Shown here piece after piece: positions 7,401 through 57,046 of a DNA stretch of 64,000 nt (position 1 is its first letter; the number at the start of each line of letters is the position of its first letter). The notes under the pieces are model-generated. The model did not search any database. It saw nothing but the letters and a program-made list of their open reading frames with translations, and had not been told where the DNA came from. The DNA comes from Lingula anatina (Eukaryota; Animalia; Brachiopoda). The stretch spans positions 50,012,788 to 50,076,787 of the forward strand of contig CM120640.1 in assembly GCA_051362555.1 (NCBI GenBank), read 5' to 3'. A program made the translations under genes and the position numbers.

Positions 7401-8535
7401 GTCATCTTTGATTAATTCCAGTCAGTAATTATCTTAACTAGTCATCTCTCAGGTATAGAACAGGTAAATGACAGATATCTGATCAAAAAGAAAGCCCTAT
7501 TTCATCTTCTACAAACTGCAAACAAAGGAACTGAAAATAATTAGAAGCCATAATCATACGTGATGTGTAAGCAATTTTTTACTATTCAAGTTTACTAAGC
7601 ATACAAGTTAACATGACTTGGCAGGTCACATAGCTCTATTTGATATCAAATTATGCATTAATTGAATAAGGCACCCGTTAAATATTTTTTCAATTTATAT
7701 TAATGAAACATAATCTTTATCTTTTTTAAGTAAAAAAAGACTGGAATCAATAAAATAAGTGTGCTTCAATGTATGGAATCTCTATGTACACCCCTTATAC
7801 CCAGGTCACCATCCCTTTCCATTTGTAATGATGATTTTCCATCCATCATGATATTTAATTAATGATTTTATTTATTTAAAAAATTTGTTTTAAGAAAATT
7901 CATATTTTGAATTTTCTAGGTTAATTGATTTCAGGATATGTAAAGACATACTAGTCAGTAAAAGTCTTTTATTCTCACGTTTTCCTTGAAGTTGTCTGTG
8001 TAATTTGTATGCTACAAGTTTATTGAATACATTTTATATGTCTAGTTTATTGCATGCAGGGGAACAGTTTTCATTACACTAATTTCATCTCTTACAATGA
8101 AACATACATGTCATAATTGGTCCTTCAAGCAAGTAATGGGATATACTAATATTCTCAGATTTCCTGTTATTAGAGGAAGGTAAGTCTTTCCATCCTTGAA
8201 ATTAGTGATTGTTTGACAAGTGACATTTATGGAACATGGATAAATGGGTTACTGGGAAGAACAAGTCTTGTTGGAATTACAGCATATACATTTATATTTG
8301 AGCCTTAGGCAGTGTATCTCATTACTTCCACAGTTCTCCTGCAAATTGAAAGAAGAGTTGAAAGGATTCCACTGTAGCCGTAGTGCATTTTACATTAGAT
8401 GTTCGCGTGTTAGCAATGATCATACCTAAAATTCTTTTGTTTAGCTCAATACATGTTTTACACTATTTTTCAGAAGATGGAATAAAAGCACAGGTGGTAG
8501 TGAAGTAAGCCTTAGCAGCTTTTATAGTCAAGACA

Positions 8536-11500
8536 ATGTTTTTTATGGAAGATGATGATGACGAAGAGGATGGAGGAGAGTTTGATATTCGAGAAGTTGA
8601 AAAGACGATTGGAGCTCTCAGACAGTGCTACTCCATCTTCAACCCTGGGACCCATGTGTGTAAAAGGAACAGAGACCATGCTATGAGCTTTGCCCACTGT
8701 GGGAGTGGTGTTGTCATTGGAGAGAAATATGCAGAAATGCACAGGCTTATGGAGAGAAGGGCACGACTGGAGTTCATGCGCGATTATACCAATCGCATAA
8801 ATGCAGTGAGGTTGTTTATTGCCCACCTCGAAGATCTTTGTCAAGAAGAGTATCAGACGTGGTATGCTGTCAAACATGAACTTGACACAGGAGAGATCAC
8901 AACAAATCTGGAAACTCTAAGCCACATCTGCGAAGAACTCCGCATGCACCATGTGAATCACTGGAACTCTGTCAAGCAGCATTTACACACCAGTAAGTGG
9001 CTGAGGCCCCAGCTCCCTGAGTTGTGTATGGAGATGGACCACATGCGACTGATGTTGATGCAGTACAGAGACGTGGCCCTGTGGTGGGTGGAGCAGATCA
9101 TCAGGATAGGACTGGAGGTGTTTGCCCACATGGACGTGGACAACATCACTCAGACAATGTTGTGGAATGTTGCAAGGGGAATTGAAGACTTCAACTCTAT
9201 TTTACAAACAGTGAGACACATCAACTCTCATGACATTCACCCACATAGAACTTTAAATGTTGACGGAAAAGCTGCCCTGCACTCAGCACTTTTTAATTGT
9301 GTCTCTAACAACTCCACAGCTCATGTGGCAAGCAGTGTCAAACCCATTCCCTTTTCCAAAGTGCTACACACTTTAGCTTTAGAACGTTCCATGGTGGCAG
9401 CCAAGGCCTTACATTCATACTTCACTATGAACCAAGAATTCCTTTCTCTCCAACAAGCCAATAGGTTCAGTGAATTTACCTGGGAATCGGTTGTTAATGG
9501 GGACAATGGAAAAAGTATATCCTTTGATACAAGAACTTCAGATTACCACAGTTCATCCAGTCAAGGGAGCTGTTCAGGGTTGAATGTCAAAATAGGGAAC
9601 CTGATAGTGCCTGACCTCACTGGGCTGCCGAACCCCCTAGGGGAGTTTGGTAGACAAGAGAGGGAGTTTGCCAGTAGTTTCCTGGGCGTTGTCTGCCAAT
9701 CTACTACACTGCTACGTAAGCATGTGGTGAAAGGCGGGGCACATTGGGGTAAAAAGTTCAGCCCAAGGACACAGAGACATTCATCTGCATTTAGGTTTGA
9801 CACTGAGTCAAATTCAAAACCCCCTCTGCTCTCAGAATTGAAAGTAAAAACAGCTGAGAAGAATGAAGAGAACTCCCAAAAACTAGATGCCCATTTTTCT
9901 AGACATGACCCCAAGCGTAAGTCAGTCACTTGGGGTGACAATGCAGACTCAACTGTCAAACTCCAGTTGACTTCTAGGTACATAGACCTGGTGTGGAATG
10001 GCATTGGGAATAACTTGTGCTTGGTGTTTGAACAGCATGTTTGGAACAGAGGTGATGGGGTAGCACAGGGTTTGGGGCATGTGGGTTTGTGTCCAGACTC
10101 TTTACTCATGGTGATTGTATACATGATTCAGCAGGGAGTTGCAAAAGGTAGGTTTACTGGTCTGCAAACAAGCAGTGCTCACTTTTATGCAAAAAATACA
10201 GCACATCATTTGATATTGATGTTTTTGATGCTTTATTCAGTGAGACTTTTATTTACTTATTTATTTTGTTTATTTTATTTTATTTTTTATTTATTTTTAT
10301 TATTATTTTTTTCTTTTTAGTTTCCAAGAATATATACCATTTTGAATTCTATTACAAATTTTTTTTATCAAAGTGTATCAGGAAGCAGTTTTTAAAAATG
10401 TTCAGTGGACAGTTTGTCTTAAGAACATCTGACATTACAAATTTGGTGAACCGTGCTTCATCCAATGAAATCAAACCTGTATTTTTATGACTTCTTCATA
10501 AGAAACACTTCTGAAAGAGTATCATGGTACTCTGTGCATGCCACATTAAATGTGACTGACAGGATAAAACCAGAATCCATACATAAGTAATCAATACGGA
10601 TCTGTTTTCATATATTCAAGAGGTTGTTTTGCATGTAATTTTGTCCATTGTACTTACTGTTTATTAGTAGCAGGAAATATTTCAACGTCTCATCTTAATT
10701 ATCTGTGGTGAAATAAGATATTTTAATGGTGTTAAATTAAATAATGCAAGTTGCTTACGTATATATGTAGTTACCACTTAGATGTCAGCATGGATACAAT
10801 AAAATATCCAAAAACATGTTGTACTATTTCAGAATTCTTCCCCGCCCAGTTGGAGGAGCCCCTACAGTCAGTTTCCAGAAGGTTGGTGGCATCAGCAGCA
10901 TGGGCCAAGTGGGAAGAAGGTTGGTTCATGGTGGCCTAAGCCTATTGAAATGAGTGGTTTTAAAATGAGTCATGTTTTCTTTCTGTTGATAAGAAACCAT
11001 AGTAACAATACGCTTTTCAGGACTTCTGTGATAGATATTTTAAGACTTAGAAAAAATGATGATGGAGAGCATGCCAAATACCATTTATAGTGAGTTACAT
11101 ATGAGTTAATTCATAGTCACTAAATAAAAGACTTTCCCTTTTTGGATTCATTACTGAAAGTAATCTTTTTACTTGATGTCTTCTCCCCAAAATTAAACAG
11201 TATAATATTTTTATTTCTTATAGCTATATGTGGTGCCCTAGCCTCCTCCACTGTAGACAAGTGCAGCCCTACACCTTTAGCTGCAGGGGCCTACAGCACT
11301 GTGACTGCAAAGCTACTGAGAGATACATTCAGGCCACTTCTTTTTCTTGTCACATCTGTAAATAGTATAAAGACACAGAGAGACTCCTCAGAGGTGTTAA
11401 AACAGTCAGCAGAGGTTAGAAAAGAGAGTTTGGAGATACTAGTGCCTGCCATTGCTCGTGTGCTGGCTACGTGTAGCGTGTCTCTCAAATGGTGCCATGT

Positions 11501-14792: not shown

Positions 14793-16343
14793 GCATGTTC
14801 ATTTATGGTTGGACTAAACTTTTTAAACATTTTGTAGTTCTGTCGTCTGCTGTGATATCAGTTTTGTGACACTTTTCATTAATAGAAGTCAGAACTTACT
14901 TGATATGCCATATTAAATCTAGTCCAGATTAAGTTTTTTAGCTTGTCCCTAAGTCAGATTCTTGTGCAATATCTGACACATTACTGGTCTTGAATTGGAC
15001 TGGAGACCTTGGTACTATATATTTTACATGATATTTAATTATATGGATGCTGTTTTTATCAACATGGTCACTTATTATTTGAATTGGAATGTGCACACTG
15101 GAAAGGGACAAAAATGAAGGTGAAGTAAAATAATATTGTCACAATTTTTTAACACAATTTGTATAGGTATGTCTGGTTATATGCACTGTGGACTCAAAAG
15201 AAATAGTATGTGTGTTAGTATAGTATGTGTGAAATAGTCAGAAAATGTTACTTAAGTGTCAACTCAGATGTGGCCTTTACTTATTATAGATGTGCGGCAT
15301 ATCGTGGAGTTCCATGCTGCCTTAAGCAGTCAGATAAGATCTGCTTTAAAATTGCATTTTAAATTTACTTACATTTTAACTACATGTCCCAAGTGTTAGA
15401 GCAATTCGTGAGCCTTGTCACCCAAGTATACAACCATGTTTGGTGGAAGTAGGGCCATTTTTCTGCAAGAATGTGAAGCTTGTGGATAATTATAACATTA
15501 TGAATGGGTGGATTCTGTCCAAGTGTGGGTAGTTATATATTCCAACCCAAAAATTTTCCCAGTGCTTCAGAGCAATGTCTTGAAAGCATAGCAACACTGT
15601 GATATATATTACTCTTTATACACAAAGCATTGTAGTTTTTGTTAGCTTGTGTCAATGTGGATAAGATGTAGTTTACACATTTTAATCAATTCCAATATTT
15701 TTTCTGTAAATTGGTTTTCGACTGAAGAAGAAGAGAAATTTGTATGATGAAGGAGAATTTATTTTAGGACATTTTGAATTTCTCTTGTAGATTTTCGAAG
15801 AGATTGTGAATAATTGAACGTTAATAATTTTTATCTTGGAACATACATTCTTGGAACAACAATCTCAAAAATCTGCTTCTGTTTAATTTTTGTGTTACGT
15901 TATTATTTACTAGTATTTTAACTTTTTAAGTATTAACATGTACGTTCAATAATATGTCAGGTTTTGTTTTCCTCATTCACGTAAGAAATCCTTTGTTATG
16001 TTGTCTTATTTATTGAGAATGTCACAATCAAAGTAAGTGCGGTAACTTGTATCATACGTGACACCTCCCAGTATTAATTGTTAGTTATTATAAATAAACC
16101 ATTGAAAATTTTCCATGGGATTTGTGATTTGAAAAAAAAAAATGAACATTTTGTACGGCGTGCTCAGAAGTTCTCAACACAAGTAGCTTCAAAACAAAAG
16201 TCAATATTATATTAGTCCTTAAACGGGGCGTGTGAACTTTGTCAAGCAGATCCTTCAAACAACTAATTCCAGTAATACGTTGTAAGCATACAGGCAAAAA
16301 AAAAACAAACTTTAGGTGAATACAATTTGTCAATACTTCAAGA

Positions 16344-19300
16344 TTATACCACGCATTCACAGTTCTCGTCATCAAACACCAAAACTACCGAGTCGCTATT
16401 CTGTCCATCTGAGGTTACAGTTTTTGCATGTAGTTTCTGGTTGGCAATCTGGGCTCCTTTGTGTAAATTGTCAACGTCTTCCTCGTGTATCGTATGGGCG
16501 CTGTCGCCAGACAGGTAGCGTGTGCGCACTGAATCGAATGTCACTGTCTTATTTTGCTTGTGCGGTTTCCACATTTTACTTTCATCATTCTGTGGATTAT
16601 TTCCAGTCGCAGCTACTACTACTGATTCTTTGCTGGACTGCTGAGTTGATCCAATGTAACACTGGGTTTGAGGGAATGGTTTACAAGAAGGAAATTGCTC
16701 GTGGTGCTGCGCTCTTTCGGACCATTTTCTAACGTCACACCTTTCTTCGATTGCATCAAGACGCTGATGTATAGTCTTCATAACAGTGCATAATTCAGAT
16801 AGTTTCTGGTGGATGCTTAAATCCGCATTTGCCTCTTCATTTTCATGTTCATTTAGGCCGATTTCTAAAATTGGTTTAAGCATTTCCCATACATCCCGCT
16901 TCTTTCGTATCTCACGGTTCTCAAAGTATTCATCGAGACTGACTCGACTTTTTAGAAGTTGGGCCAGCCATGAGTCACTTAGATGGAGGTAAAGCTCTAT
17001 GGACATTATTTGCTGTTTCATCTGTGCTATGTGCCGCACTGCCTCCACATCTCCTACAGCTAGACCAATGAGCAGGTTGTTCAGGATGATCACAACTAGT
17101 AAACAAAAGATTATCAACATAACTACACCTAAATCGTACTGTTGCGTCCTATTGATAAAATTCTCATGGTAACCGAGCTCGCCGAAGCTCATCAAACCTA
17201 CTGTTATAATCGAAACGCCAGCCGTTTGAAACATGGTGATCGAGTTCTTGAGGGCGTAGAAAGCCAAACCAAACGCTATTACAAACGTGAGTAATATCCA
17301 AATGACTTTGAGAAGGGTACCCAGTAGTATCTTGATCATATGGACGTATATACCAAAGACCGGGATGAGTTCTAGAAACAGAACAAAATCCAACCACGCT
17401 AAGAAGACGGCTACGGAACCCAGCTGCATTCGGACGTCATCGCTGAAATAATCTTTTGGTAAAAACTCTCCAAGTGCCCCGAGAGTGAAAAGAAAACTTG
17501 TGATATATAAGGCCCATTCTATAAAATTGTCAAACTCCATGTATGCTGTTATTCCCTGGACTTTCAATTGACACAGTTCTTTTATCATCTGGATAAGTAT
17601 GGTTGCCATGACAATTGTTGCCAGAGCGGTGTGGTAATTCCCTCCGTGCAACACTTCCGCATATTTCTCGGAGGTGCTATTTAGATTATGGGTAATATTC
17701 ATGTAATGAATATCCGTTTCCATAACTATCAAAGAAGTCAGTAGGCACAAAAACACCACAAACGTGAAGAAATTCAAGAAGTAGACATACACTCCAAACT
17801 TCTGCCAACTGACCGCCACTAGCTTTTCGACCACGGGGTGGTGCATGCATCGTACGTACGTAGCGTTTTCAACCGCGTCCATCTTGATCAAAGCTTTTAG
17901 TGGAGTATTGTCACCGTGGCCTTTCAGATACCTGAAGTCGTAACGAAAGCGCTGGAATTTCTTCTGGCGAAAGGAAGACGTATTACCCTGGGGAAGTTTA
18001 TCGTATAATTCACGCAAGTTTATTTCCCCGTCACCATTACGATCGAAAGTGGTAATAATTTGGTCAACTTCCTCCTCTTGGAAATCGGTCCCCATCATCT
18101 GCAATCCTTGTCGGATTTCGTCTCGAGACAACGATCCACTATTGTTGGTATCCAATCGCTCAAATATAGTTTTGATTCGTAAACCCTTTTTTCGTGCGTG
18201 ATCGAACAGCTTAATCAGCGGATTGGAATCTTTTTCTTGTTTCTCCTCTTCCTGGGTGACGAACTGATCTAGAAATTTTTCTGCGGCGTCCGGCATTTTC
18301 TGCATTATTTCTGGCAGTTGAGGGTGGCCGTCAGGGCTGTTTGGCAAACGCAGGAATCTAAAAGACAAGGCGTGATGGATGATGAAAAAAGGTGTGCAGC
18401 GCATGTTTAATATTGTGAAAACTAAGAAAAAAGAAAGGTTGTAAATACTTTTCAATTTACATCTGTAAGATGACCAACAAGTTTCGTTTGTTTATTGATT
18501 ACCATCCTTCAAAAATGCAAAACAGAAGTAGAAATCAATGCAACATAGTTGCTTACCTTGCCCAATCAGGTCGTGACGCCAAAAGCAGTACAACATCTTC
18601 ATTGCCTGCAACCATAGCGACATCCAAGACGTTTTGTCTATGCCAGTTGTAACTAACCCTGCACCCCTGGTCCAAAAGAGCTTTCACGAGCTGAACGTGG
18701 CCTTGACGGGCGGATACATGGAGAGCTGTGTCCCCTTCACAATCAATCATATCCAATGAGGAGGAAAATACATTTAGGAGTTCTGTAACGCAATCTAAAC
18801 TTCCCGACTTTGCTGCCAAATGAAGAGGAGACTCCCCTTTTATGTTCTGAGATACGGAGGCCTTAAATTTGATCAGAGCTTTCACCATGGCGGCATTTCC
18901 AGCAGAACACGCTAGGTGCAATGGCCTGTTCTTAAAGTCGTCCTCGCAGTTGACAACAGCACCTCCGTGGACTAATTCTTTTAAGCATCCCGTAACGACT
19001 GTGTCAGAGGTGTAGTGAATAGCATACCTGCCGTAGCCATCACGGTCGCTGATGTTCCCCCCATATTGCAGTATCAAACGAACAGCTTCAGCGCTTTCCC
19101 TGGCAGCGTAATGAATGGGGGTGCAGCCAACCTTGTCAAATCTCTTTAATAAAGGTTTTGCTTCGTGTTTTTGTAACAAGAAGTGCAGAAGCTCTGGGTT
19201 TGTGACAGCTAGATGTAGGATATTTTTGTTCTCATCATTTGTTGTGTCAAAACGCGCACCGTTACTAAGAATAGCTTGCACTGACTGAAGGTTACCACGT

Positions 19301-20097
19301 AACACAGCAAGCGCCAGTGGTGTGCAGCCACTCTCATCTCTGGCCTCAATGTTCGCGCCGGCTTCTACCAACAATGTGACGATGAGGTTGCCATCTGTGA
19401 GAGAGCTGGCAGTGTGTAATGGCGTGAGGCCCTGGGTACCGTGAACATTGACATCTATATCAGCGTGGCTGAGTAACGCCTTTACAATGTTTACGTTGCC
19501 CGTGCACACTGCTGCGTGAAGCAGACGATCTTCTGTTCCATGCAAAGGGACATTTACATTGGTCGAGCGTCTCTTTGAAAGCGTGCGTTCTAGTTCTTCT
19601 TGATTTTGACTCAAAATTGAGTCCAAAATTATCTGACAGTTTAAAATATCAAGCTGAGGATCATTGGCATGCTCTCTTTTGTTTGGTTTCTCGGTTTTTC
19701 TAAGGAGTTGAAAGTTAAAACTGGGCGAGGAATCGTCTATCCAAGAAGATGGTCCGAATTCAAATAAGTTACTGTTTTGGAGATCTACAACTAGGATTTT
19801 CTCCAAAAACCACAAATGGCCAGAACCTTTCGGTACAATCTGCATTCTTTCTGGACTCCCTAAATTTTTAAACGTCTCGATTTCCATCCTAGTAACCTTC
19901 CCCTGTCGATGAAAAGTCCACGTCTCCTTGCGTTCATGGTTACCAAATAAGGTGATAAGTGATTCTGACCCCGCCAAATTTTCTGTGTAGTTGTCTGCGT
20001 ACACCAGAACTTCATACTTAAGTGAACTTGGTTTATCTTTACGAATACTATCCGTGTAGATAATTTTCCTATGTTTTAAACTCCCGTTTCTTTCCAT
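16344..20097 (-). CDS. TRPA-family cation channel with N-terminal PLAT domain, ~10 ankyrin repeats and an inserted EF-hand pair (~1184 aa)
   Basis: Exons 20097-18557 and 18357-16344 joined by a 199-bp GT-AG intron (AG|gtaag ... ttttag|A) that restores the frame (..PDWAR FLRLP..). TRPA hallmarks: MPDAAEKFLD, RYDFRYL, HPVVEKLVAVSWQKFG, six hydrophobic segments, pore MSFGELGY, NNLLIGLAVGDVEAVR, C-terminal coiled coil. Start codon is the first ATG of the ORF; an upstream exon is not excluded. Confidence 0.9.
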
Positions 20098-21096
20098 CTT
20101 CACTCTCTTTTGGCACGTAAAACGGTGAGATATGAACAAACTTGCACGTTCTTTAAAACCTTCAAAACACTTATCGCTTAGTCTGTAAACTCTGTGCGGA
20201 AACAATAAAGACCATAGGAATCAATACATCAAGCACCAGCCAATTGAGCAGTTTGGTAAAAGTTATGTGATCGAGAACATTCTTCATTGATAATCGATGG
20301 TCTTTCCTGTTGGAAACAAGCTAACTTGTTGTTACCGCTGCTGCCCCGTTAACAGATTAACAGCAAACCTGAACAAAGGCAATTTCTGAAATTCCAGAAG
20401 AATTCGATACATTTGAACCTAATTGCCTATAACTGATTTCACTATTATCATAATATCCCGGCCCCTTCATCAATGCTCAGTTCCAAGTTTTGGTTCCAAA
20501 AATATTGTGTCATTTCGTAAAGCGGTTAACGCAGATCTTGTAATCAATGCGATTTCACACTAATTGATCACTAAACTGCACAAAAAAGAGAAACAGCTTC
20601 ATCAATATCTTAAATAAATAATGAAGTAAATGAAGTAGACCAAATTAAATAAAGATCCAAATGATGTTTCTCCATCAGAAGATACCTACATGCTTAAATG
20701 ATATGCAACGGGACTTTCTAGTCGTGACGTCTAGAGTAAACCAAGTCAAAAGCACAGAAGTTTTTCCTGCTTTAGGTGATTATTGCTGCAATTGCATTAT
20801 TACTGCTGTTCATATGATAAATCAGTTACAATGTAAATAAATCTTGTTGTACAATGAATCACTTTACTAGGATCAGCAAATTACAGTGCCCTAGTAATAC
20901 AACCGGTTTATACAGTATATACGTTCACATACGCACTGTTGATCCCTCCTGCTCCTATTTCTTTTCCCTTTGTGTAATATTCGCTGATAAATGTGCATGT
21001 ATAAAATGTGCATGTTTCTATCACAGTGGCAACATCCATATATAAAGAATATGTATATCTAAAACGTGTTGTATCATATTTATTGAAAGATTGATT

Positions 21097-24000
21097 TCAC
21101 TGCAACAAGTATGTGAAATCAGATTGAACGCTTTCTGTTGACGGATGGGCGTCCCTTTTGAATATCACCACTGGTTGGACAAAAACCAGTCCTTTCATCC
21201 TACATGTCCCAATATCGTCACAATAGTATAACATGCACTCCAGTTTTATGTCCGTTTTCCCAGTTCTCCTCCCTCTGAACTCCAGCCAAGGCTGGTGGAC
21301 TAGGTCCGTCAGGCTGCCTTTAGCAGGAGATTCGCATTCAGTGACATCATCTACAATGTGAAGAAAAAAACTTATGAATACCTATTAAAATTCATTATCT
21401 AATTTTTAAGACTGATTGACTGTGTCTGTCAGGCTGCCTTTAGCAGGAGATTCACATTCATTGACATCATCTGCAAAGGGGAAAAAAATGATGAATACTT
21501 TTTCAAGTTTATTATTTAATTTTTAAAACCATTCCCATTATTTTGTCCAACAATCTGATCTAATGCCCTCTGATGATTCGTCTCATATGTAAGCATGTAA
21601 TACAAAAAAGGCCTACTGTATTCAAATAACACTAAATGAACCATTTTCAAGGGCCATATAAACACATAAATGATACAGCTGCACCTACCTTCCAGCCATA
21701 TCTGCCATGCACTGGGTGCCCCCTCTGTCAAGTGCCAGTGTTCAGGTAACTGTATATTGAGGTGACACAGTAACAGCTGCCCTTCCAGCAAATTTAGCTG
21801 CTCTAGAGTGACAAGCTCTGCCCTGGCTGGGGTCAGGCGTTTGAAGACTGGCTGTGGAAGGGAGTCAGTGCAGTCTAATTCTGTGAGCGTAGGGAATATC
21901 ACAGGGAACTGAAATTAATTTTTTTTCTTTTTTATTTGCAAATGGTGTTGATGAAAAACAGGCATTTTTTTGTTACAAAACAAACTAAATAAGTAAATAC
22001 CGTGAAATTGCTGACATATGGATTCTGTCATTCAGAATGAGTTAGGTTGACAGTTTCACTAGCTAGTATGCATTAATTTAACAGGGATTTTGGACGATTG
22101 CAATCAGATTAGCATGCTTCTTGTTTCCAACATACTGGCATAACCACCCCTTTCTGTATATTCTACTCAATGGCAGGAGGTGTGTTAGTCTGTTAATCTG
22201 ACTGCATTCAGTAAATGCGCATTCCCATAGATTTTAGATCGATCTATCCCCGTGGGGAGTCTCACTAGATTACTGTCAGATAATCCGGCTTAAATGTCCG
22301 TCCCGCCTACTACAAGCTGTAAGGGGATAATTAACTTTCGTGCCCCCTCGGCTGACAGGTATTTAGCGTGAACCCCCAGGGAGTTGGGTCGATCTAGTTG
22401 GATCGATCTAATCTCTGGGAATGGGGTCTAAGAGTCCCCATGGAGTTACTGTGCACTAGCTAGTACAACTCACTCTGAATGGTCCCTTACAAAACAGTTG
22501 TTTTCAATATATAAAATGCTTAAACAAAAAAAGAACACATCAATCATTCACATGTTAGAGGCACTGAAGTTGTGACTGTTATTTCTGATTTGTAAAATGA
22601 TGTACCTACCTCTGCCACCTCCTTGGTGGATAGATCATAAACTTTGATGGAGTGGTTATTGGTATCAGCAATGTACAAATACTGTCCAGTTGGGTCCAGT
22701 GCCAGCCCTCCTGGTTCATTAAAGGCAGCATCTGTAGCACTGCCACACCTGTTCCCTGGTTCACCTTGGCCCAGGATGGTGGTGCTGGTCTTAGTTGATG
22801 GATTAATTAACTTCACCTTCAGAAAATAGATATTTATAAACAGGTGATGGCAATTTTCATAGTTACATCGACTACATTTACATTAACTGCAAAAGAAATC
22901 TCTGTAAGGGACCATTCACAATGGATTTTATCCGCCTAGTTACTGCATGCTAACTCCACTGGACTTCGCTTGTTTCTAATGTACTTGTAAAATCACCAGC
23001 TTTTCTGTATTCTACAGTACTCAATGCCAGGACATACATATTACATTTACATCAGATGAAGTAGAGGTCTTTACTTGGAACTCGGTGCCCTGTTCTGTAA
23101 GTAAGCATGGTCCATAACAAACCTTGTGGTTGTACGAGTCAGCCACTGCCACCTGGTCTTCTCCAAACATAGCCACACCCAAAGGATGCTGCAACTTGGC
23201 ATCAACACCCTTGCCATCTACATCTCCATAGGCAAACAGATTCTGAAAGGTTGGCAAGGATATTTATTTCTTTGAAAATTGATCAATTTATTTTATTTCA
23301 ACAAGGATAGAAAAATTTCATGTTTGATGTTCCAGCCCTAGCAATAATAATGTATCACTTTGATTTGAAGCACGTGTAACATGTTAAATTTCATAAAGGA
23401 GGCTTTGATTAAAAACTTTTCAACTTTTTGCTAGAAATGTATACATTCCCATTTTCTCCCCAAGGAGGTATCATATCAAAACTTTTTTTTAGTATTTGTC
23501 AGAGAAATGTTTGCATTCTACAGATCTTGTAAACTGAAGTTGTGTGATGAACTTTCAACATGAAACATTTTATTTAAAAAGGGCATACTGACACATACCA
23601 TAGGATCCCTTTCCCCACCAACAAGTGCCTTCACACTACCATCTTGCAGGGAGATCATACGCACTGTTGAGCTCTCACTATCTGCCACATACAGCATATT
23701 CTTAGTGGAATCTAAGGCAAGACCTGAAGGCTGTGCAAAACAAGCACGGGCTGGGTAGCTGTTGTTACGATTCTCCTCTTTTCCACTTCCAGCAAACCTT
23801 ACACAGGTGCCTTTACTGTATTGGCTGTAAAATTTGGTAAAATAACTTAATAAATGTGCCATTACTTCAGCATAATTGTATATTCTAGAAAGTATAAATG
23901 CTTATAATAACATGAGTTTTATCTACAAACAGAAATCTACTTCATAATTAAACCTAAAACCTTATAGTGCAACACTTCAATATATTTTAGTAGTACAACA

Positions 24001-26416
24001 AAATAACTAAACAATACAGACAGATATCAAAATCAATTTCGCAGTCAATGTAAAATAAAAATAAACAGTACCTTCCCTTCAGCCACTTCCCATCCTCCAG
24101 AAAATACATCCATATTTGATGTATTCCAGCCATAGCAATAAATAAAACATTTGGGTCTGATGAACCTGTAAATACAATCAAAGTAACATGTTTTTTTACA
24201 GGTAACAATCAAATTATATTACTATATTTTTTTCCATGAAAAACATTTTTACACTTATTAATTAAACAAAACCTGAACTTACACTAAAATCTTAACACTA
24301 AAATACAGGAAAATGGTACATTTGAATACAAATACAGCACCTACACATGTCACACTGTCAACGTTTGCCTGTCTTACCCACAGACTTCCCCAGGACAAGA
24401 TCCCAAGGTGAGCTGATCTCCTGGTCAGTCCCCTGCTGCCCCCCTTCATGATCATGGCCCTGCTTTCCTGTACCACACACAGTCTCAACTTGCTTGGAAT
24501 CCAGGCATATCTAAAATATTATAACTTAATTTGACTGCATATAATTTAATTGGAATCAAAACCAATGATATATGAAAATAAAGGTGAAAAGTATAAAATG
24601 TTTGCTCACAAAAAGGCAAAAGCTGAAAATCTGAATGTAAAATTGGTATTCAGAATAAAAAAAGGTTCTTTCAAGCTTGCTGAAATGTAGTTAATTATCA
24701 TATACCTATCCAGGACAAAAAAGCAAAAAAAAAAAAAATATATTTTAAAAACCTCTGTTGTATAGTCTCTAACCTTTCTGACAGAATGGTTCTCTGTATC
24801 AGCAACAAATATTACATTCCCCAATGCTGCCACACCCTGGGGACTGCTAAACATAGCCTCTGTAAAATGTCCATCTCTCAGACCAGCCTTTCCACTTCCA
24901 ATACATTCCTGGAATATCATCATTTGACTCAGTTTCATTCATACCTATTTAATCAAAGCTTAATTCTGCTACTTGGTAGCATGATAAAATGTCAATATTA
25001 AAATCTCTCTAACAGTATAAGTCGATTTTCCTTAAGATAATCATGTTCTAAAAGTACATATTGATGTCACGAATACTTGAATTTCGTTTGAAACTAAAAA
25101 TCCACTAAACAAGAGTTATCTACCTGGACTACTCCCTGTCTATCTGTGACCAGTATCCTATGGTGTCCACTGTCTGAGATGACCAGGCTTTCCTCAACAA
25201 CACAAACCTTGCCAGGAAACAACAGAGGGGAAGGTGGGATAGAATCTTTATACAATTTCATCTCAACACTCGCATCAGATATCTGGCCACGAGATTTGAA
25301 GTAGTCAAGTGCTACGGAAACAAATTCTAGGAGTTTCTCTCTGTGTCCTTCACCTACAAAGGTGTATAATAACTGTCCTTCTGGGCCTAAAACCAGGAGT
25401 GTCGGCCAACACTGGATGCTCAACTGGTGCCATAGAGAAGCATCAGCATCATTGACAACAGGATGGGTGATATTGTACCGTAATACAGCACTGAGAATGT
25501 TTGCTGATGTTTTCTCATTGTCAAACTTGGCAGAGTGTACCCCAACCACCACCACACCATCCGTGACTGTGAACTGTTGTTCCAGGGCATGGAGATCAGG
25601 CAAGATGTGGATGCAGTTGATACAGCAGTAGGTAAAAAAATCTAGCACTACCAACTTGCCTTTGAGGTTTCCATACAAACTGAGAGGGGAAGGCACATTG
25701 AACCACTCTAAGCCTGTAATAAGAGAAAATCCTGCTTGCAATGGTAAAATTACAACAGTAAAAAAGATTATTAAAGTGAAAACTGAACACCTGGTTACAT
25801 ATACTAAATGTAATTCTGTCTTAAAGTATACTCACTATTCTTTTATTTCAAAGGGCAAATGTAAGGAATAAAATGGCATTAAACAAAATATGATACAAAC
25901 TATATTAAACCACAAATAATATTTTCCTATTAATGATTCAGAAAGGTGGCTAATACAGGATGTGACGTTACTGTTGCCATTTAAATATTAAAATATCACT
26001 AATTCTAACGCATTTTAATTTCCAGCTTCAAAAAGGAAACAAAATACAAACACAAATTTAAACATATGCTCGAATGTATATTAAATAAGAAATCGCTGAT
26101 AAGAAGTAGGATAAAAACACTTGAAGACTAGAAGACTAGTGCTTTAGACCTTCATTTTGGTAATCACACTTTTCTTGTACCGGGTAGTGCCAGTAAGACC
26201 GGTTATTGAGACATATACACCCATGAAAAACGGAAATTTTTAGACAAGAAAATTACCCTGCTTAAAATCCGGACAAACTGTGTATTTTCCTTTGGTTAAT
26301 TTCTTCACATGATCTTGGATGTATTGTCGACGTTCAGCTTTGTCGTCTATGCCAGTTAACTGTTCTTCCAGCTCAAAACAAGCTGATTGAAATGCTGTGA
26401 CATTCACACCCGCCAT
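21097..26416 (-). CDS. NHLRC2: NHL repeat-containing protein 2 (thioredoxin-like + NHL beta-propeller + C-terminal beta domain)
   Basis: Exons 26416-26257, 25713-25124, 24908-24774, 24510-24378, 24165-24072, 23824-23599, 23242-23123, 22816-22610, 21908-21689, 21350-21097, all frame-compatible. Diagnostic [51 protein letters not shown] motifs. Confidence 0.96.
21290..21530. repeat. 120-bp tandem duplication spanning the NHLRC2 last-exon acceptor
   Basis: GTCAGGCTGCCTTTAGCAGGAGATTC.CATTCA.TGACATCATCT occurs at ~21308 and ~21428, with continued similarity in the intronic flanks. Confidence 0.9.
22220..22423. mobile_element. Fold-back MITE in an NHLRC2 intron
   Basis: CATTCCCATAGATTTTAGATCGATC at the left end pairs with GATCGATCTAATCTCTGGGAATG at the right end; GC-richer than flanks. 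Confidence 0.55.
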
Positions 26417-47200: not shown

Positions 47201-49337
47201 GTTTCCCCACATATTTAATGCATCTGTTTTGTGGGGGTCAACCTACTGCTGTGTGAATAAGTTATAAGCTTGGCATAATAATACTGCTAATGAACCATAC
47301 GAAGAACCACTCCCTAGCCCAAGACTGACCAAATAATTCATACACCATTTTAGTTTTCATTCATTTCAAGTTTTGTGCCTGTACATTCCCTTTGATCTTT
47401 TCTTTTAGCTGATAGAACAATGTCCAGTGTTTGGTTCTAAATGCTATATTAATCAGGATAATGGTCTAGTTTTGTATTTCTGCTTGGATTCAAAATCAAT
47501 GTAAATGGTTCAAGAACATGCACTGCAACAATTTCTGTAAATCTGTTACTGGCACCGCTCCTTAATTTTGGAGGGAAACCATCTTTTATGTTGCCACGTG
47601 GATGGGCTATATGCAATTACATATAAAGACCACTACCTTTATGTGCAAAGGGGAAATGAATCAGGTCCACCTGATAGCTACATTCAACAACTGGGATTTT
47701 CAAGTAAAAGAAAATAATTTACTTCACCGATAAGCAGTTTCACAAAAGACCTTCTAGTACATTTTAATTATCATTACAAAAACATGAAATTATCTCTGAC
47801 AAAGCCATTTGACATTTGAGTATTGCATTCTTATCTTCTTTATTTTGAAGTGTAAAGTTAAGAAATGCCAAGATGATACCAGACACAGTTCAACTGGTAT
47901 GGTGTAGGAAGTGTTATCATCCACTGTCCTTTTTTTTCTCCTTTATTGCTTGGTAGTTCTCACTTTGTGGTGATGAGTACAACCATAAAACTGCATCAGC
48001 TCAGGATAACTTCAGGTCATGGGGATTGAATTTGATACTTGAACAAACTGTACTACAGGGCTACCTGCATCAGTGGTGTATTTCCTGACAATGTATGTAA
48101 TTTTAGAGAAAAGGAGGAGGCATCAGCTTTTAGTAGTGTGATTACATAACATCTATGGAGGGGAATATGAGTATTTTGAGATAAGGAGGCTGGTCCATTG
48201 CAGCAGTTTACATTAGTGGAAAGGGGATGAGGACTATACTAAAAGGGGATGCGTTTCTGTCTGGCCCAGTAAATTGTCATGCAAGAAACCATGCCATCTG
48301 ACCATGACTGGTTTCATTCACCAACTTCATCTTTATTTGGAAGTACATGTGTGTCTTAGCTAAACTATATCTCGATGTTTGTGTACAAATACATCTAAAA
48401 TGACCCTGACACAAGTAGTTTTCAATGTAACTGTAAAATCCTGCTAAAAAAAATCAAATAAAATTATCTGGATACTGCCTTATTCACATCATATGGATTG
48501 TGTTGACCACCAAATTGATCTAAACTTGGATAAGAAGTCCAGCATGAGGGCAATGGACAGTTGAGGACAGATGTCATCACCTCTAACGTGACAAAAACAA
48601 TAAGACCAATGCATTAGAAAGTCTTCATACCACATGTAAAAATAAATGGATGAGGTGGGTGATAAAATCATGGCTGTTTGATGCTGTACTGTATGTATGA
48701 TATTACAGGTAATATGGAATAAGAGATGTACTTGGACGATAATATGAATACTAGTTGATATTACAAATGTTACCCCTAGTATATAGCAGAAATTTATCCA
48801 AATATTTCATATAAAATACTTACATATACAGAAGGCTGCCAACAATCTGACAGCAGATGCAGGCTGTTCACAGTCAGGGAAAAGAGGCTCTATAATGTAA
48901 TTGGCAAATGTCAGTGATACAATTGCTGCTGAACAGGGACGAATGATCAAACATTCAACCCACAGTCTTAGAAAGGCTAGAAATGGTCCAAATGCTTCAA
49001 ATATATAAGCATAATCTGCACCAGACTTCTTGATCATTGTTCCTAATTCGGCATAACAATACGCCCCAATTAATGAAAATATACCACATAATGCCCAGAT
49101 GATGAGAGACAGTCCAACACTGCCTGCTTCAGCCAGAACTCCTTTGGGGCTAACAAAGATGCCAGAGCCTATAATGCTGCCCACAATAATAGTACAAGCA
49201 TTAACCAAGCTGATTTTAGGTTTCAACTCTATTTTGTTGTTACTTTCCCCACTACTTGCTGCTTCTGATGTGCTAGCTACATCCGCCGACGGTTCCGCCT
49301 GGTCAACTGCAGAGTATTCTTTCTGATTAGCAGACAT
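35072..49337 (-). CDS. SLC7 heteromeric amino-acid transporter light chain (LAT/y+LAT-like)
   Basis: Eleven frame-consistent exons: 49337-48824, 46493-46368, 44224-44125, 39928-39884, 39583-39460, 37986-37883, 36717-36621, 36329-36180, 35892-35808, 35457-35365, 35136-35072. Motifs [37 protein letters not shown] (heavy-chain disulfide Cys), [30 protein letters not shown]. Confidence 0.95.
38203..38263. repeat. (AT)n microsatellite
   Basis: Perfect AT run. Confidence 0.98.
40264..40528. repeat. 135-bp near-identical tandem duplication in an SLC7 intron
   Basis: AAGGTTAAAAAGCAGGAACAAAAATATCAAATATCATAAAAACTGTCAC...AAAATCAAAC starts at 40264 and again at 40399. Confidence 0.95.
46673..46969. mobile_element. 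Palindromic (fold-back) MITE, PIF/Harbinger-like, copy A
   Basis: Nearly the whole element is an inverted repeat: GCCATTTAGACTGAGAAGA...CCTAAATATGGCGGAC / GTCTGCCATATTTAGG...TCTTCTCATTCTGAATGGC; core shared with 61272-61569. Confidence 0.8.
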
Positions 49338-52300
49338 ATTGCCGACTGGAGACCGATTCTTCCGATCAAATATCTGATCTGTACAAAATCCTGATAATGA
49401 ACAGCAGTGTGCTCTGTAGTTTAATTCATACACTTCGTCAATCCTCCGTTAGTCTTTTTTCTACAATGTAAGTGGTCTCAATCATGAAGGTCCACCTATA
49501 TCAAATAGAAGCTGCTACGTACTTGTACACAAAGCAACCACGTGTGTCAGTGACTGAGTGCTGTATATGTCTGTAGGCATGGCGGCATAATGCTAAGAGG
49601 TCGTTCCAATATTGGATAGAAATTGAATAGAAATTAGATTATTCTTTGGACTTCGATTCTAAGCTTATTACATAATTTTCACTATAAAAATTTTATGTGG
49701 AGAATGTTTCCTTGAGCAGAGTAATCAATTATAACAGATTAAAACTGTACGTGTTTTCAAGATATTATATTCATTGTACCTGCTCAACCCAAATAATGGA
49801 CGAGTCAATGTCGACGTAGTGACGTGAGCAGTTAGCGCTTGTGTACAGAAATGATGAAATACGGGAAATACTCCATGAAAACAACTGTCATAGAAAAAGC
49901 GAAAGAAATTCATTATATTCATTATTCATTAAAAGGCTTTAGTTGACAAGATTACAAATGAAAAATAGCTTATTTAATTTTTTGCCTTTGAAGGTTCTCT
50001 ACCTGTTGACATTAAAAAATCCCCGCTTTTCAATAAAAGATAGTAAGGTAAACTTAATTTTGTCACGAAATTTCCCGTAAATTGGACTTTGAAATGCATT
50101 CATACAATGATTTTTAAAAATGTTTCCGATGTTTAATGGATTTACTCCAGTTAAGTACAAATGTTAGAAATTATTGGCAGATCCAAAAAGGGAGGTTGGC
50201 CACAAAAATTCCCATGTACTAGTAGCCATGTATCCATTTACTCATAAAGTACTAATTGATATTAGAGGTACATATAATAGATTCTTGTGTTCTCTCTGTG
50301 GGCTATACATGCTCCAAGAAGCTTAAGTTAGTAACGGTACAGACAAAACTATTACAGGTAAAGGGGGGGGGGGGAAGGTGATGTACAATACTCCTCTTGC
50401 ATAAGCCTTGTATTTAGTGAAATAAATATAGAGAAATTTTATACAAAACGTTTCTCAAATATTCCTCGTCCCTGCACTTGAATATGCTGAAGTTGGCAAA
50501 TTTTATTTTTCACTAATTTATGTAGTGATATATTTATTTATTGGTATGTATGTTCAATCATAACAGGCGTAGCAGAGAAATAATCTGTGCACTGAGTATC
50601 AGAAAATGTAAAAAGTAGTACTAATGCATGGGTTTTCATGCTAAAAAGGAGGAGTAGTGGTTAAATTTAAGGTCTAACTAATAGATTAATATGCCACCCT
50701 GTCATGTACATTATAAAAACATAACAAAAAACAACCACGATGTACAAAATTTATTAATCTACACACACTGCGGACAAACAAATCCACAGGAATAATTTTC
50801 AATACATAAAGCTTTGGTTTAATTAGTAATGATTTATATGAGCAAACAATTACAGTTAAGAAAATACATATACACAAACAAAGCATCAATATATACAGTA
50901 GAGAGAGATGGATGACATGCACTTAATGAATAAAGGCACTTAGAAAATGGATTATATCACTTATCTCCACAAAGGAACGTATATATACCAATAATTATAT
51001 TGCTAGTAGACTCAATTAGATTTTTTTTCTTTTTGTATTTCTGTAAAATGCTGTTATTGCTCAGAGTCTGACTAGTCTACTACCCCTGTATATATGTAGT
51101 AAAATGCATAATCAAAATAAAATGCTTATTTGAAAAATGCAGATAGATTAAAGAGTCCACTTTAAATACATCATAATTTCCTGACAGGGAGAAAGTTTTT
51201 TAGGCAATTTAAATAATTAAGATACATCGACACCAAAAAAATTAAGCCTTGGAAATACACTGTATGCACCATTTTCATATTAGAAAGAGCCAAGTACAAA
51301 TTAAAAGTCTATAGACACTAAGTAAAGTTTAAATGTCCCTTTTGACTGTAATTTAGTACAATTTGAAATTAGTACAATTGCTTACATCTGTCTGCCATGA
51401 CAGTATTTCAAGTAGGTAATTTAATTTCTGATGTACTTGTATTGAAGCTAATTCATCAATGCTAATTAGCTAACTGCATTTTCCAAAATTTCAAGAACTT
51501 TTAAATATTAAGATAAGTTGTAAGATTCTAAAAAATATATACATACACTAAATTTGACACCACTTAAACAATGATACCTTGCTGTAGTTTTTGATTAATT
51601 CAAATTTGTTACTACCAAAATATTTGAGCTCTTAAAACAATTCAACAGTACATTGCATTTTATAGTGGTATCTGCTTAAACTTCCGTAACAAAACTGAAT
51701 GCTCTTTGTCTAAAAAAATTCATTCTCATGGGTAAGATATGTCATAAGCTTTCCTTTAAAAAATCTCAAAATATATATTACTTTTAAATTTGAGTGCATT
51801 CATACTATGAACAAAAATAATATCACTTTACTATATATATATACTGTTCTTACATGAAGTATAAAAAATATTTTGGTTTACATTACAATAATTGCAATGT
51901 GTTACGTATATTGTCACATTAACATATTTTTATATATTTACATGTGTACATAAATAATTCACGCTGTGCTCAGATTTGAAAAAGAAGTACATAATAAAGA
52001 AAGAACCTTGAAAGGACAAGTAAAAGAATTTAGAGTGCAGTGAATACTCTCATAATTAAATGTAGACTCAAATGGACTTGAATTCTTTTAAAGAACACTG
52101 AAACTCTTTTCTCCACCCCATCAATGGGTTTTTATCCATAACAAAATTGGACATTCTGGAAAGGGGTGGATATCCTTCATACCCCCTGCCAAGGTCATCA
52201 AGTGCTCCACAACAATTTAACTTCACACATGATCTTCCATGTGAGTAAACATAAAAATGAGAGCATCATGTAAAAAACTTGTGAAACAAACCCACTCTAG

Positions 52301-56393: not shown

Positions 56394-57046
56394 TTTAACG
56401 AAATGAAAATTATCTTAATAAATCAAAAAGAGTCAGCACATCTATTTTGCTGTGATAATCTATGACCAAACAGGCTGCTTGGTTTCAATGAACACTCAAT
56501 GTGAGCAAGCGTCACCAGTTGCTAAGGCCCCGTTGCCAGCCTCCACTTGACCTAGGCGGCCTATGCCCCTTTTGTTGTCAAACACTTGAGCTCGGCACCA
56601 ATCAGGGCAAAGCTTGGGGTTGGCATGGCGGCTACTTTGCTTTATTTCTTTTGTCAATATGCGAGAAAATTGAGCGCGCCATATCAATTGCAACTTTTGT
56701 TCTCAAATGAAAAGCAAAAGTCAATTTTGCTAATTCATCTGCACTTGCGCACTCGTTCGAGTACCTGGGCTGCATCTAAATTTGAGATTTAAACTATCTT
56801 TGGAATCATAAATTAGAAATAAAATCATCAAATATTATTCATTAATTCAAATGCTATTTTTATTTTACTTGGTATATATGTTCATCATTGATCTAATGGT
56901 GATCGACATTATTTTATCGCTCCATCCAGTTTACATTAAAATTTAGTATAAACCGTGTTGTCAAGATGTAGGACGAAGTCTTGACTGTTCTCTACCTCGT
57001 ATCCGTCCATATTTTGTTTAATTCCGTCCACGACAATATTGCCGAG
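56394..57046. promoter_or_regulatory. Putative bidirectional promoter with X-box (RFX)-like motifs
   Basis: 653 bp between divergent ATGs; GTTTCAATGAACAC (56482-56495) and GTTGCTAAGG (56518-56527) resemble RFX X-boxes; locally GC/CpG-richer. Confidence 0.5.

What the first reader, a model, noticed from the sequence alone, without database searches (positions are those of the whole stretch)
16344..20097. TRPA-like channel with PLAT-ankyrin-EF-hand-channel architecture
Seen: one spliced ORF encodes a PLAT/LH2-like domain, ~10 ankyrin repeats, an EF-hand pair and a TRPA 6-TM module. Known: TRPA1 is ankyrin repeats (~16-17) plus channel; among TRP relatives PLAT occurs in PKD1-type polycystins and an EF-hand in the PKD2 C-terminus, not in TRPA. 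Inference: a domain-shuffled TRPA subfamily combining up to three Ca2+/lipid sensors, possibly an undescribed lophotrochozoan sensory channel. I do not recall this architecture being described but cannot check.
Basis: partly seen in the sequence, partly recalled or inferred. Interest (0 to 1): 0.9.

Follow-up and report, generated by a model that had tools for sequence, protein, structure and literature searches.

The report
TRPA channel with built-in calcium sensor
This lamp-shell (Lingula) gene encodes a relative of the wasabi receptor TRPA1 that has lost the irritant-sensing cysteines and has a calmodulin-like module spliced into the domain that works the gate, so it is likely opened or tuned directly by calcium inside the cell.

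Summary
A two-exon minus-strand gene (199-nt GT-AG intron) encodes 1184 aa: PLAT fold, 10 ankyrin repeats, EF-hand pair, TRPA-type channel. It is Lingula anatina RefSeq 'TRPA1-like' (9 substitutions from each of two entries). Ankyrin, EF-hand and Ion_trans pass Pfam cut-offs. PLAT does not score in Pfam but is clear by fold (top ten matches all PLAT, Z 12.8-6.0). One other, unnamed organism has the same parts, and there the EF module is 81% identical, against 56% for ankyrins and 41% for PLAT. The pore and the S2-S3 calcium site are kept. Likely a directly calcium-regulated TRPA; whether calcium opens or closes it is untested. Not supported: a broad lophotrochozoan subfamily (two organisms found) and PLAT as a calcium sensor. 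Splicing rests on a few reads. No description was found in ten literature searches.

The parts
18557..20097 (-). Exon 1 coding part (aa 1-514): PLAT, helical linker, ankyrin repeats
   Evidence: an upstream exon is not excluded
18358..18556 (-). Intron, 199 nt, phase 2, GT-AG
   Evidence: sequence; depth arithmetic on a few RNA fragments; RefSeq protein is joined here
16344..18357 (-). Exon 2 coding part (aa 514-1184): coupling domain with EF insertion, S1-S6, TRP-like helix, coiled coil, tail
19699..20025 (-). PLAT/LH2-fold domain (aa 25-133), in place of the first six or seven ankyrin repeats of TRPA1
   Evidence: ankyrins align to human 276-600 only
18574..19533 (-). Ten ankyrin repeats (aa 189-508)
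17955..18245 (-). About 90-residue insertion between coupling-domain strands β1 (aa 547-551) and β2 (aa 649-654): basic amphipathic helix 560-570 plus EF-hand pair
18117..18152 (-). EF loop 1 (aa 583-594), canonical D-x-N-x-S-G-x-L-S-x-x-E pattern
18009..18044 (-). EF loop 2 (aa 619-630), canonical D-x-N-x-D-G-x-I-N-x-x-E pattern
17058..17786 (-). Six-transmembrane TRPA-type channel module (aa 705-947)
17517..17579 (-). S2-S3 calcium site: E774, Q777, N791, E794 = human E788, Q791, N805, E808
17163..17189 (-). Selectivity filter; E907 = human D915
16974..17051 (-). TRP-like helix without a WKxxR box
16719..16823 (-). Predicted C-terminal long helix at the place of the TRPA tetramer coiled coil
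   Evidence: the role is inferred from TRPA1
16347..16388 (-). Terminal acidic + C-E-C-x-V motif, kept in both organisms (7 of the last 14 residues) after a poorly conserved tail
   Evidence: function unknown, possibly a PDZ-type ligand or lipidation site (inference)

Best explanation
This is a TRPA-family cation channel whose coupling domain carries an inserted EF-hand pair that likely acts as a tethered sensor of cytosolic calcium and would open or potentiate the channel, in place of the electrophile sensor it has lost. Shown: the architecture, the insertion site in the β1-β2 loop, two canonical EF loops, loss of C621/C641/C665 and an A-loop 11 residues shorter, a kept pore and S2-S3 calcium site. 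Inferred: it forms a Ca2+-permeable homotetramer; Ca2+ binding changes the EF lobe, which moves the three-stranded sheet and the contact with the last ankyrin repeat of the next subunit, and so the TRP-like helix and the S6 gate; the channel would then amplify Ca2+ rises from receptor signalling or other channels. The PLAT likely handles membrane or protein docking and trafficking, as in polycystin-1, and is not needed for sensing.
For: Insertion: 112 and 111 residues between the C641 and Y662 equivalents in the two organisms, 19-25 in 32 of 32 other TRPAs; flanked by β-strands 547-551 and 649-654 in the model, with EF helices at pLDDT 71-81. EF module 64 of 79 identical between the two organisms, on a par with S4-S5/S5 (34 of 42) and pore-S6 (48 of 65), above ankyrins (136 of 245) and PLAT (45 of 109). 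None of the 9 differences between window and RefSeq falls in residues 351-732. Four of four loops fit the canonical pattern. C641 is Cys in 30 of 32 other rows, Phe in both. In fly TRPA1 this same loop forms an inter-subunit contact with ankyrin repeat 16, and the K677A/K678A mutant doubles heat-evoked current (PMC10073219, section 9 read), so the site can tune gating. Channel module best matches TRPA1 (E 7e-35; next family TRPV6 E 0.02).
Against: No functional data. The direction of the calcium effect is not determined by any result here. In the fly paper, disrupting this interface kept the heat and NMM responses, so it modulates and is not essential, and cysteine mutants kept their NMM response, so loss of the cysteines does not prove loss of electrophile sensing; C621 and C665 are Cys in only 8 and 13 of 32 other rows. 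The model is a monomer (pTM 0.59) and its coordinates could not be examined for contacts. Human E920 is kept in Lingula but is Ser in the second organism; the Y799 equivalent is ambiguous by one residue. Expression is low, about 1x depth.
Confidence: 0.5

Rival explanations
1. The EF pair is a built-in brake: a fused stand-in for the calmodulin C-lobe that drives Ca2+-dependent desensitisation, and another stimulus (heat, lipid, an unknown ligand) opens the channel.
For: Vertebrate TRPA1 needs the calmodulin C-lobe bound at a distal C-terminal element for rapid desensitisation (PMC12485084, introduction and passages read). A pattern for that element finds it in eel TRPA1b and not in either EF-bearing protein. 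One EF pair is the size of one lobe.
Against: The pattern is also absent from nearly all invertebrate TRPAs here that have no EF insertion (1 clear match among 34 rows), so its absence is no special sign. The loss of the electrophile pocket leaves the activator unexplained.
Confidence: 0.27
2. The EF lobe is a Ca2+-dependent docking site or local buffer that recruits partners and does not move the gate.
For: It sits in a surface loop with poorly conserved linkers (1 of 6 identical before, 10 of 23 after). A conserved basic helix (560-570) and a conserved terminal motif suggest protein contacts.
Against: The loop is part of the gating sheet and an inter-subunit contact in fly TRPA1; high conservation fits either role.
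Confidence: 0.13
3. A heat- or force-gated TRPA in which PLAT anchors the shortened ankyrin array to the membrane as a tether, with the EF pair secondary.
For: PLAT domains bind phosphatidylserine and PI4P in polycystin-1 (PMC9672506, passage read). Invertebrate TRPAs include heat sensors.
Against: PLAT is the least conserved folded domain (41%) and nothing here tests lipid binding or force.
Confidence: 0.08
4. The architecture is an annotation or assembly artefact joining two genes.
For: No joint was listed by the read tool; one unspliced fragment in X9; in the second organism the two halves are separate protein records.
Against: EF pair and channel share one exon; PLAT and ankyrins share one exon. 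Alignment to human TRPA1 runs on through the junction (residues 193-549). Depth values fit spliced fragments. Both halves of the second organism come from a contig of the same length, 5154 nt.
Confidence: 0.02

Closest known systems
Human TRPA1 (PDB 6V9V, 6PQO and others)
   Same: Ankyrins colinear with residues 276-600, coupling-domain fold, S1-S6, S2-S3 calcium site, filter acid, I957/V961 gate, TRP-like helix.
   Different: 10 rather than 16 repeats; PLAT at the N-terminus; 90-residue EF insertion; C621, C641, C665 replaced; A-loop 11 residues shorter; no distal calmodulin element; one intron in the coding sequence.
Drosophila TRPA1-A (PDB 7YKR)
   Same: Best whole-model fold match (E 1.8e-29); the β1-β2 loop is an inter-subunit contact there.
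   Different: That loop is a short charged turn in the fly and an EF-hand domain here; 17 repeats against 10.
Divergent TRPAs of Saccoglossus (P0159), Branchiostoma (P0106) and an unnamed JGI record (P0086)
   Same: Nearest rows in the trees; P0159 also has Phe at C641 and a short A-loop.
   Different: No EF insertion and no PLAT; the joins involve long branches and may be false.
Polycystin-1 (PLAT) and polycystin-2 (EF-hand)
   Same: PLAT fold (8Z6B, Z 6.0); EF-hand domain on a TRP-superfamily channel (PMC12980990 passage).
   Different: Group-2 TRPs without ankyrins; PLAT and EF lie on different polypeptides and at other positions.
Calmodulin-like EF-hand lobes (SCaMC-1 N-domain, CDPK, centrin)
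   Same: Best PDB sequence matches of the insertion (E 1.4e-10 to 7e-9); best database match is a fluke EF protein, 54% over 57 residues.
   Different: Only one lobe, embedded in a channel; the donor gene was not identified.

Membership tests
TRPA family | N-terminal ankyrin array followed by a 6-TM module most similar to TRPA1 | tested here: met
   (TRPA1 E 7e-35, TRPV6 E 0.02)
TRPA family | TRP-like helix without the WKxxR box of TRPC/N/M | tested here: met
   definition from PMC10795286 passage
TRPA family | Homotetrameric Ca2+-permeable cation channel | not testable with these tools
   filter acid, gate residues and C-terminal helix are kept; no current measured
TRPA1 clade (orthologues of vertebrate and insect TRPA1) | Groups within the TRPA1 clade on the channel module | tested here: inconclusive
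   Falls outside it in both unrooted trees, but holding the pair with 12 TRPA1-clade rows is not rejected (AU p 0.13); no TRPN/TRPC outgroup; no painless, pyrexia, water witch or TRPA5 rows identified in the set
TRPA1 clade (orthologues of vertebrate and insect TRPA1) | About 16-17 ankyrin repeats | tested here: not met
   10 repeats
TRPA1 clade (orthologues of vertebrate and insect TRPA1) | Electrophile pocket cysteines C621, C641, C665 and full A-loop | tested here: not met
   P526, F546, G660; loop 11 residues shorter
PLAT/LH2 domain | Pfam PF01477 at or above the gathering score | tested here: not met
   no hit for Lingula; 22.7 against 23 bits for the second organism
PLAT/LH2 domain | Eight-stranded β-sandwich superposing on solved PLAT domains | tested here: met
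   (Z 12.8, rmsd 2.2 over 109 residues)
PLAT/LH2 domain | Ca2+ or lipid binding | not testable with these tools
   the acidic loop motifs I recall from lipoxygenase and polycystin PLATs look absent in both sequences (alignment), but that consensus is recalled, not from a call
Canonical EF-hand pair | Two helix-loop-helix motifs with 12-residue loops, D1, G6, E12 | tested here: met
   4 of 4 loops in the two organisms
Canonical EF-hand pair | Measured Ca2+ binding | not testable with these tools
   needs ITC or a mobility assay
TRPP (polycystins) | Group-2 channel module, no ankyrins | tested here: not met
   ankyrin array present; no polycystin among the 24 PDB sequence hits of the channel module

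The most novel reading that the evidence does not exclude
A TRPA that swapped irritant sensing for direct calcium gating: a captured calmodulin-like lobe in the coupling-domain hairpin is the primary ligand sensor that opens the pore, making this a natural chimera that shows how force on the β1-β2 loop gates a TRPA channel.
Probability: 0.33. Interest if true: 0.78.

Novelty: new variant of a known kind. Interest (0 to 1): 0.57.

Why it matters
How calcium first boosts and then shuts TRPA1 is still called poorly understood, with several disputed sites (PMC12485084, introduction). Here a true EF-hand pair is wired into the coupling domain of a TRPA that keeps the S2-S3 calcium site and lacks the electrophile cysteines. 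Two point mutations would separate the contributions, and a structure would show how the β1-β2 loop talks to the gate. It is also a clean case of two domain captures in one sensory channel. The limits are its narrow known range and the lack of any function.

Tried and rejected
No whole genome is held, so other Lingula TRPA paralogues and synteny were not examined; tblastn found no second copy in the window. PLAT by sequence: no Pfam or PDB hit for Lingula; the word-indexed search with residues 20-230 returned itself and five ankyrin-Roc-type proteins matching through ankyrins only. Search for more family members: among the best 150 of 229,331 representatives (cut at 271 bits, crowded by ankyrin arrays) only P0002 and P0042 were close; a two-row profile of linker+EF+pre-S1 against proteins of 113-361 aa gave 23 hits, all EF-only. 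Short fragments or distant members can still be missed. ESM Atlas: PLAT clusters at 0.85-0.87 for the N-domain, a lead only; no usable hit for the insertion. In the full-length model the PLAT region is low-confidence (pLDDT 32-57), probably because other rows' ankyrins were aligned over it, so the separate model was used. No RNA holder was listed by index; 8 raw-read runs were laid, X3 gave 0 reads and X2 also had 4 reads in the opposite orientation. The primary human TRPA1 structure papers were not held; residue roles come from reviews. No complex was folded: a tetramer exceeds the size limit. Earlier findings of the scan: nothing.

Full report
Gene. Two long ORFs lie on the minus strand at 18553-20220 and 16344-18491. 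Removing a 199-nt GT-AG intron (18556-18358, phase 2) gives a 1184-aa protein from ATG 20097 to the stop at 16344; without splicing the frame ends after residue 514. The protein is that of Lingula anatina RefSeq XP_013402082.1 and XP_013397108.1, both named 'TRPA1-like'. The window differs from each at 9 positions and they differ from each other at 2, so these are likely alleles. An upstream exon is not excluded: the frame is open for 41 codons before the ATG, and the second organism's ORF starts about 55 residues earlier.

RNA. Eight of nine listed raw-read runs were laid, each read in part (6-30%). Both exons have about 1x depth, and in X1 all reads over the gene have the orientation expected of a minus-strand RNA. 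No joint reached the tool's threshold. The 41-nt depth bins are reproduced exactly by two mates spliced at 18357/18557 in X5, one read across a 199-nt gap slid by two bases in X9, and two reads ending at the acceptor in X2; one X9 pair runs through the intron (model 1.15 against 1.1 observed in one bin). The coarser bins of X1 and X8 also fit reads ending at the acceptor. This is my arithmetic on a handful of fragments, not a listed junction.

Domains. Pfam passes ankyrin, EF-hand and Ion_trans models. The channel module matches TRPA1 structures at E 7e-35 and the next family, TRPV6, at E 0.02. Residues 193-549 align colinearly with human 276-644, so the first six or seven repeats of TRPA1 are missing; the model has ten repeats. 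In their place, residues 25-133 fold as a β-sandwich whose ten best VIA-align matches are all PLAT-bearing proteins, Z 12.8 to 6.0, against 5.1 for the best other fold (Foldseek agrees). Pfam does not see this PLAT in Lingula and gives 22.7 bits (cut-off 23) in the second organism, which is why automatic annotation lists ankyrin, EF-hand and Ion_trans but no PLAT.

Where the EF pair sits. In an alignment of 35 proteins (P0042 left out of the counts as it ends earlier), the stretch between the human C641 and Y662 equivalents is 112 residues in Lingula, 111 in P0002, and 19-25 in 32 of 32 other TRPAs. In the model the insertion lies between strands 547-551 and 649-654, with a third strand at 990-994: the three-stranded sheet of the coupling (nexus) domain. 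[quoted passage not shown] Both loops are canonical in both organisms.

What was lost and kept. Human numbering is read from the printed alignments. C621, C641 and C665 correspond to P526, F546 and G660, and the A-loop is 11 residues shorter. C641 is Cys in 30 of 32 other rows; C621 and C665 in only 8 and 13 of 32, in gap-prone columns. These residues are the covalent sensor in human TRPA1 (review passages), but fly cysteine mutants keep their NMM response (section 10 read in full), so electrophile insensitivity is likely, not shown. The S2-S3 calcium ligands E788, Q791, N805, E808 (PMC8036557 passage) are kept as E774, Q777, N791, E794 in both organisms, as are the filter acid (E907) and gate residues I944 and V948. 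The distal calmodulin element of vertebrate TRPA1 (PMC12485084, passages and introduction) is not matched.

Second organism and range. The scan of 1.84 billion representatives returned P0002 (EF + channel, 59%) and P0042 (PLAT + ankyrins, 51%). Each comes from a single unnamed Logan contig of 5154 nt; I infer one contig and one gene. P0002's match starts at the Lingula exon-2 boundary and P0042's ends at residue 433, which suggests a shared intron and an extra one (inferred; the DNA was not seen). Identity by region: EF module 64 of 79, S4-S5/S5 34 of 42, pore-S6 48 of 65, ankyrins 136 of 245, PLAT 45 of 109, distal tail 25 of 114, last 14 residues 7 of 14. No other fetched protein matched the PLAT, and only two EF-only arrays matched the insertion; 0 of the 17 other top hits scanned had EF or PLAT models. 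The family is therefore known from two organisms; a brachiopod range is a guess.

Tree. On the pre-S1 to TRP-helix region (insertion excluded), the two form a clade (100/100) on a long stem (2.68 changes per column) outside a 30-row group (97/91) that holds the TRPA1 clade and a second clade (36 rows). With 22 rows (14 left out, among them the longest branches) the picture is the same, but forcing the pair into the TRPA1 clade is not rejected (AU p 0.13). There is no outgroup. It is a TRPA; its subfamily is open.

Mechanism. Shown: anatomy, insertion site, residue losses and retentions, conservation. Inferred: a Ca2+-permeable tetramer in which the EF lobe binds cytosolic Ca2+ and acts through the sheet and the inter-subunit contact on the TRP-like helix and gate. 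I put opening or potentiation at 0.5, because the usual activator site is gone and the lobe sits beside it; built-in desensitisation at 0.27; partner docking at 0.13. The PLAT likely serves docking or trafficking, by analogy with polycystin-1 (PMC9672506 passage); nothing here shows it senses calcium.

Literature. Ten full-text searches were run; those aimed at this architecture listed no paper describing it. TRPA1 + brachiopod + ankyrin gave 0 papers. The one paper with TRPA, PLAT domain, ankyrin and EF-hand (PMC12980990; passages and one supplementary table seen) uses PLAT and EF-hand for polycystins, and 0 of its 8 Lingula entries is a TRPA. PMC8539334 and PMC10795286 (passages) do not describe it; bioRxiv 10.1101/690933 (passages) does not mention Lingula. 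Subscription journals, figures and most supplements were not searched, and databases already list the EF-hand among this protein's domains.

Verdict. A real, apparently undescribed variant of a known channel family, with a specific and testable mechanism but a narrow known range and no functional data. Interest 0.57.

Noticed in passing
window 8509-10320 (+) and further + strand ORFs to about 14100: A 603-codon open stretch with a weak Pfam CC142_N match (E 0.13, below cut-off), probably a large exon of a CCDC142-like gene. RNA reads of the opposite orientation at 15800-16200 suggest a + strand transcript ending close to the TRPA gene's 3' end.
   Followed up: partly
window 25094-25831 (-) and 20900-21400: Thioredoxin-like + NHL ORF, an NHLRC2-like gene by recall. 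A minus-strand transcript with about 20x depth in X1 ends near 20916, some 800 nt upstream of the TRPA start, so the promoter space is short. That the two stretches belong to one gene was not checked.
   Followed up: no
window 21270-21480 (-): A near-duplicate stretch of about 60 nt (around 21352-21290 and 21472-21410), each after an AG acceptor: a duplicated exon start of the upstream gene. Reads splice in at 21352.
   Followed up: no
window 48807-49448 (-) and 56972-57589 (+): Amino-acid permease exon (E 1.4e-18) and a weak phosphofructokinase match (E 0.04).
   Followed up: no
P0032 (Hydra vulgaris XP_065650592.1, 2370 aa): Holds two TRPA channel modules in one record, sister to each other in the tree: a tandem pair merged by annotation, or a real tandem channel.
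   Followed up: no
P0086 cluster (JGI/Logan, 1066 aa): A full-length TRPA called as one ORF on 4-5 kb metagenome contigs, so intronless or from RNA; among the nearest rows to the Lingula pair.
   Followed up: partly
RNA runs over window 15800-21600: Most reads are only 90-99% identical to the window: high polymorphism or cryptic species under one label.
   Followed up: no
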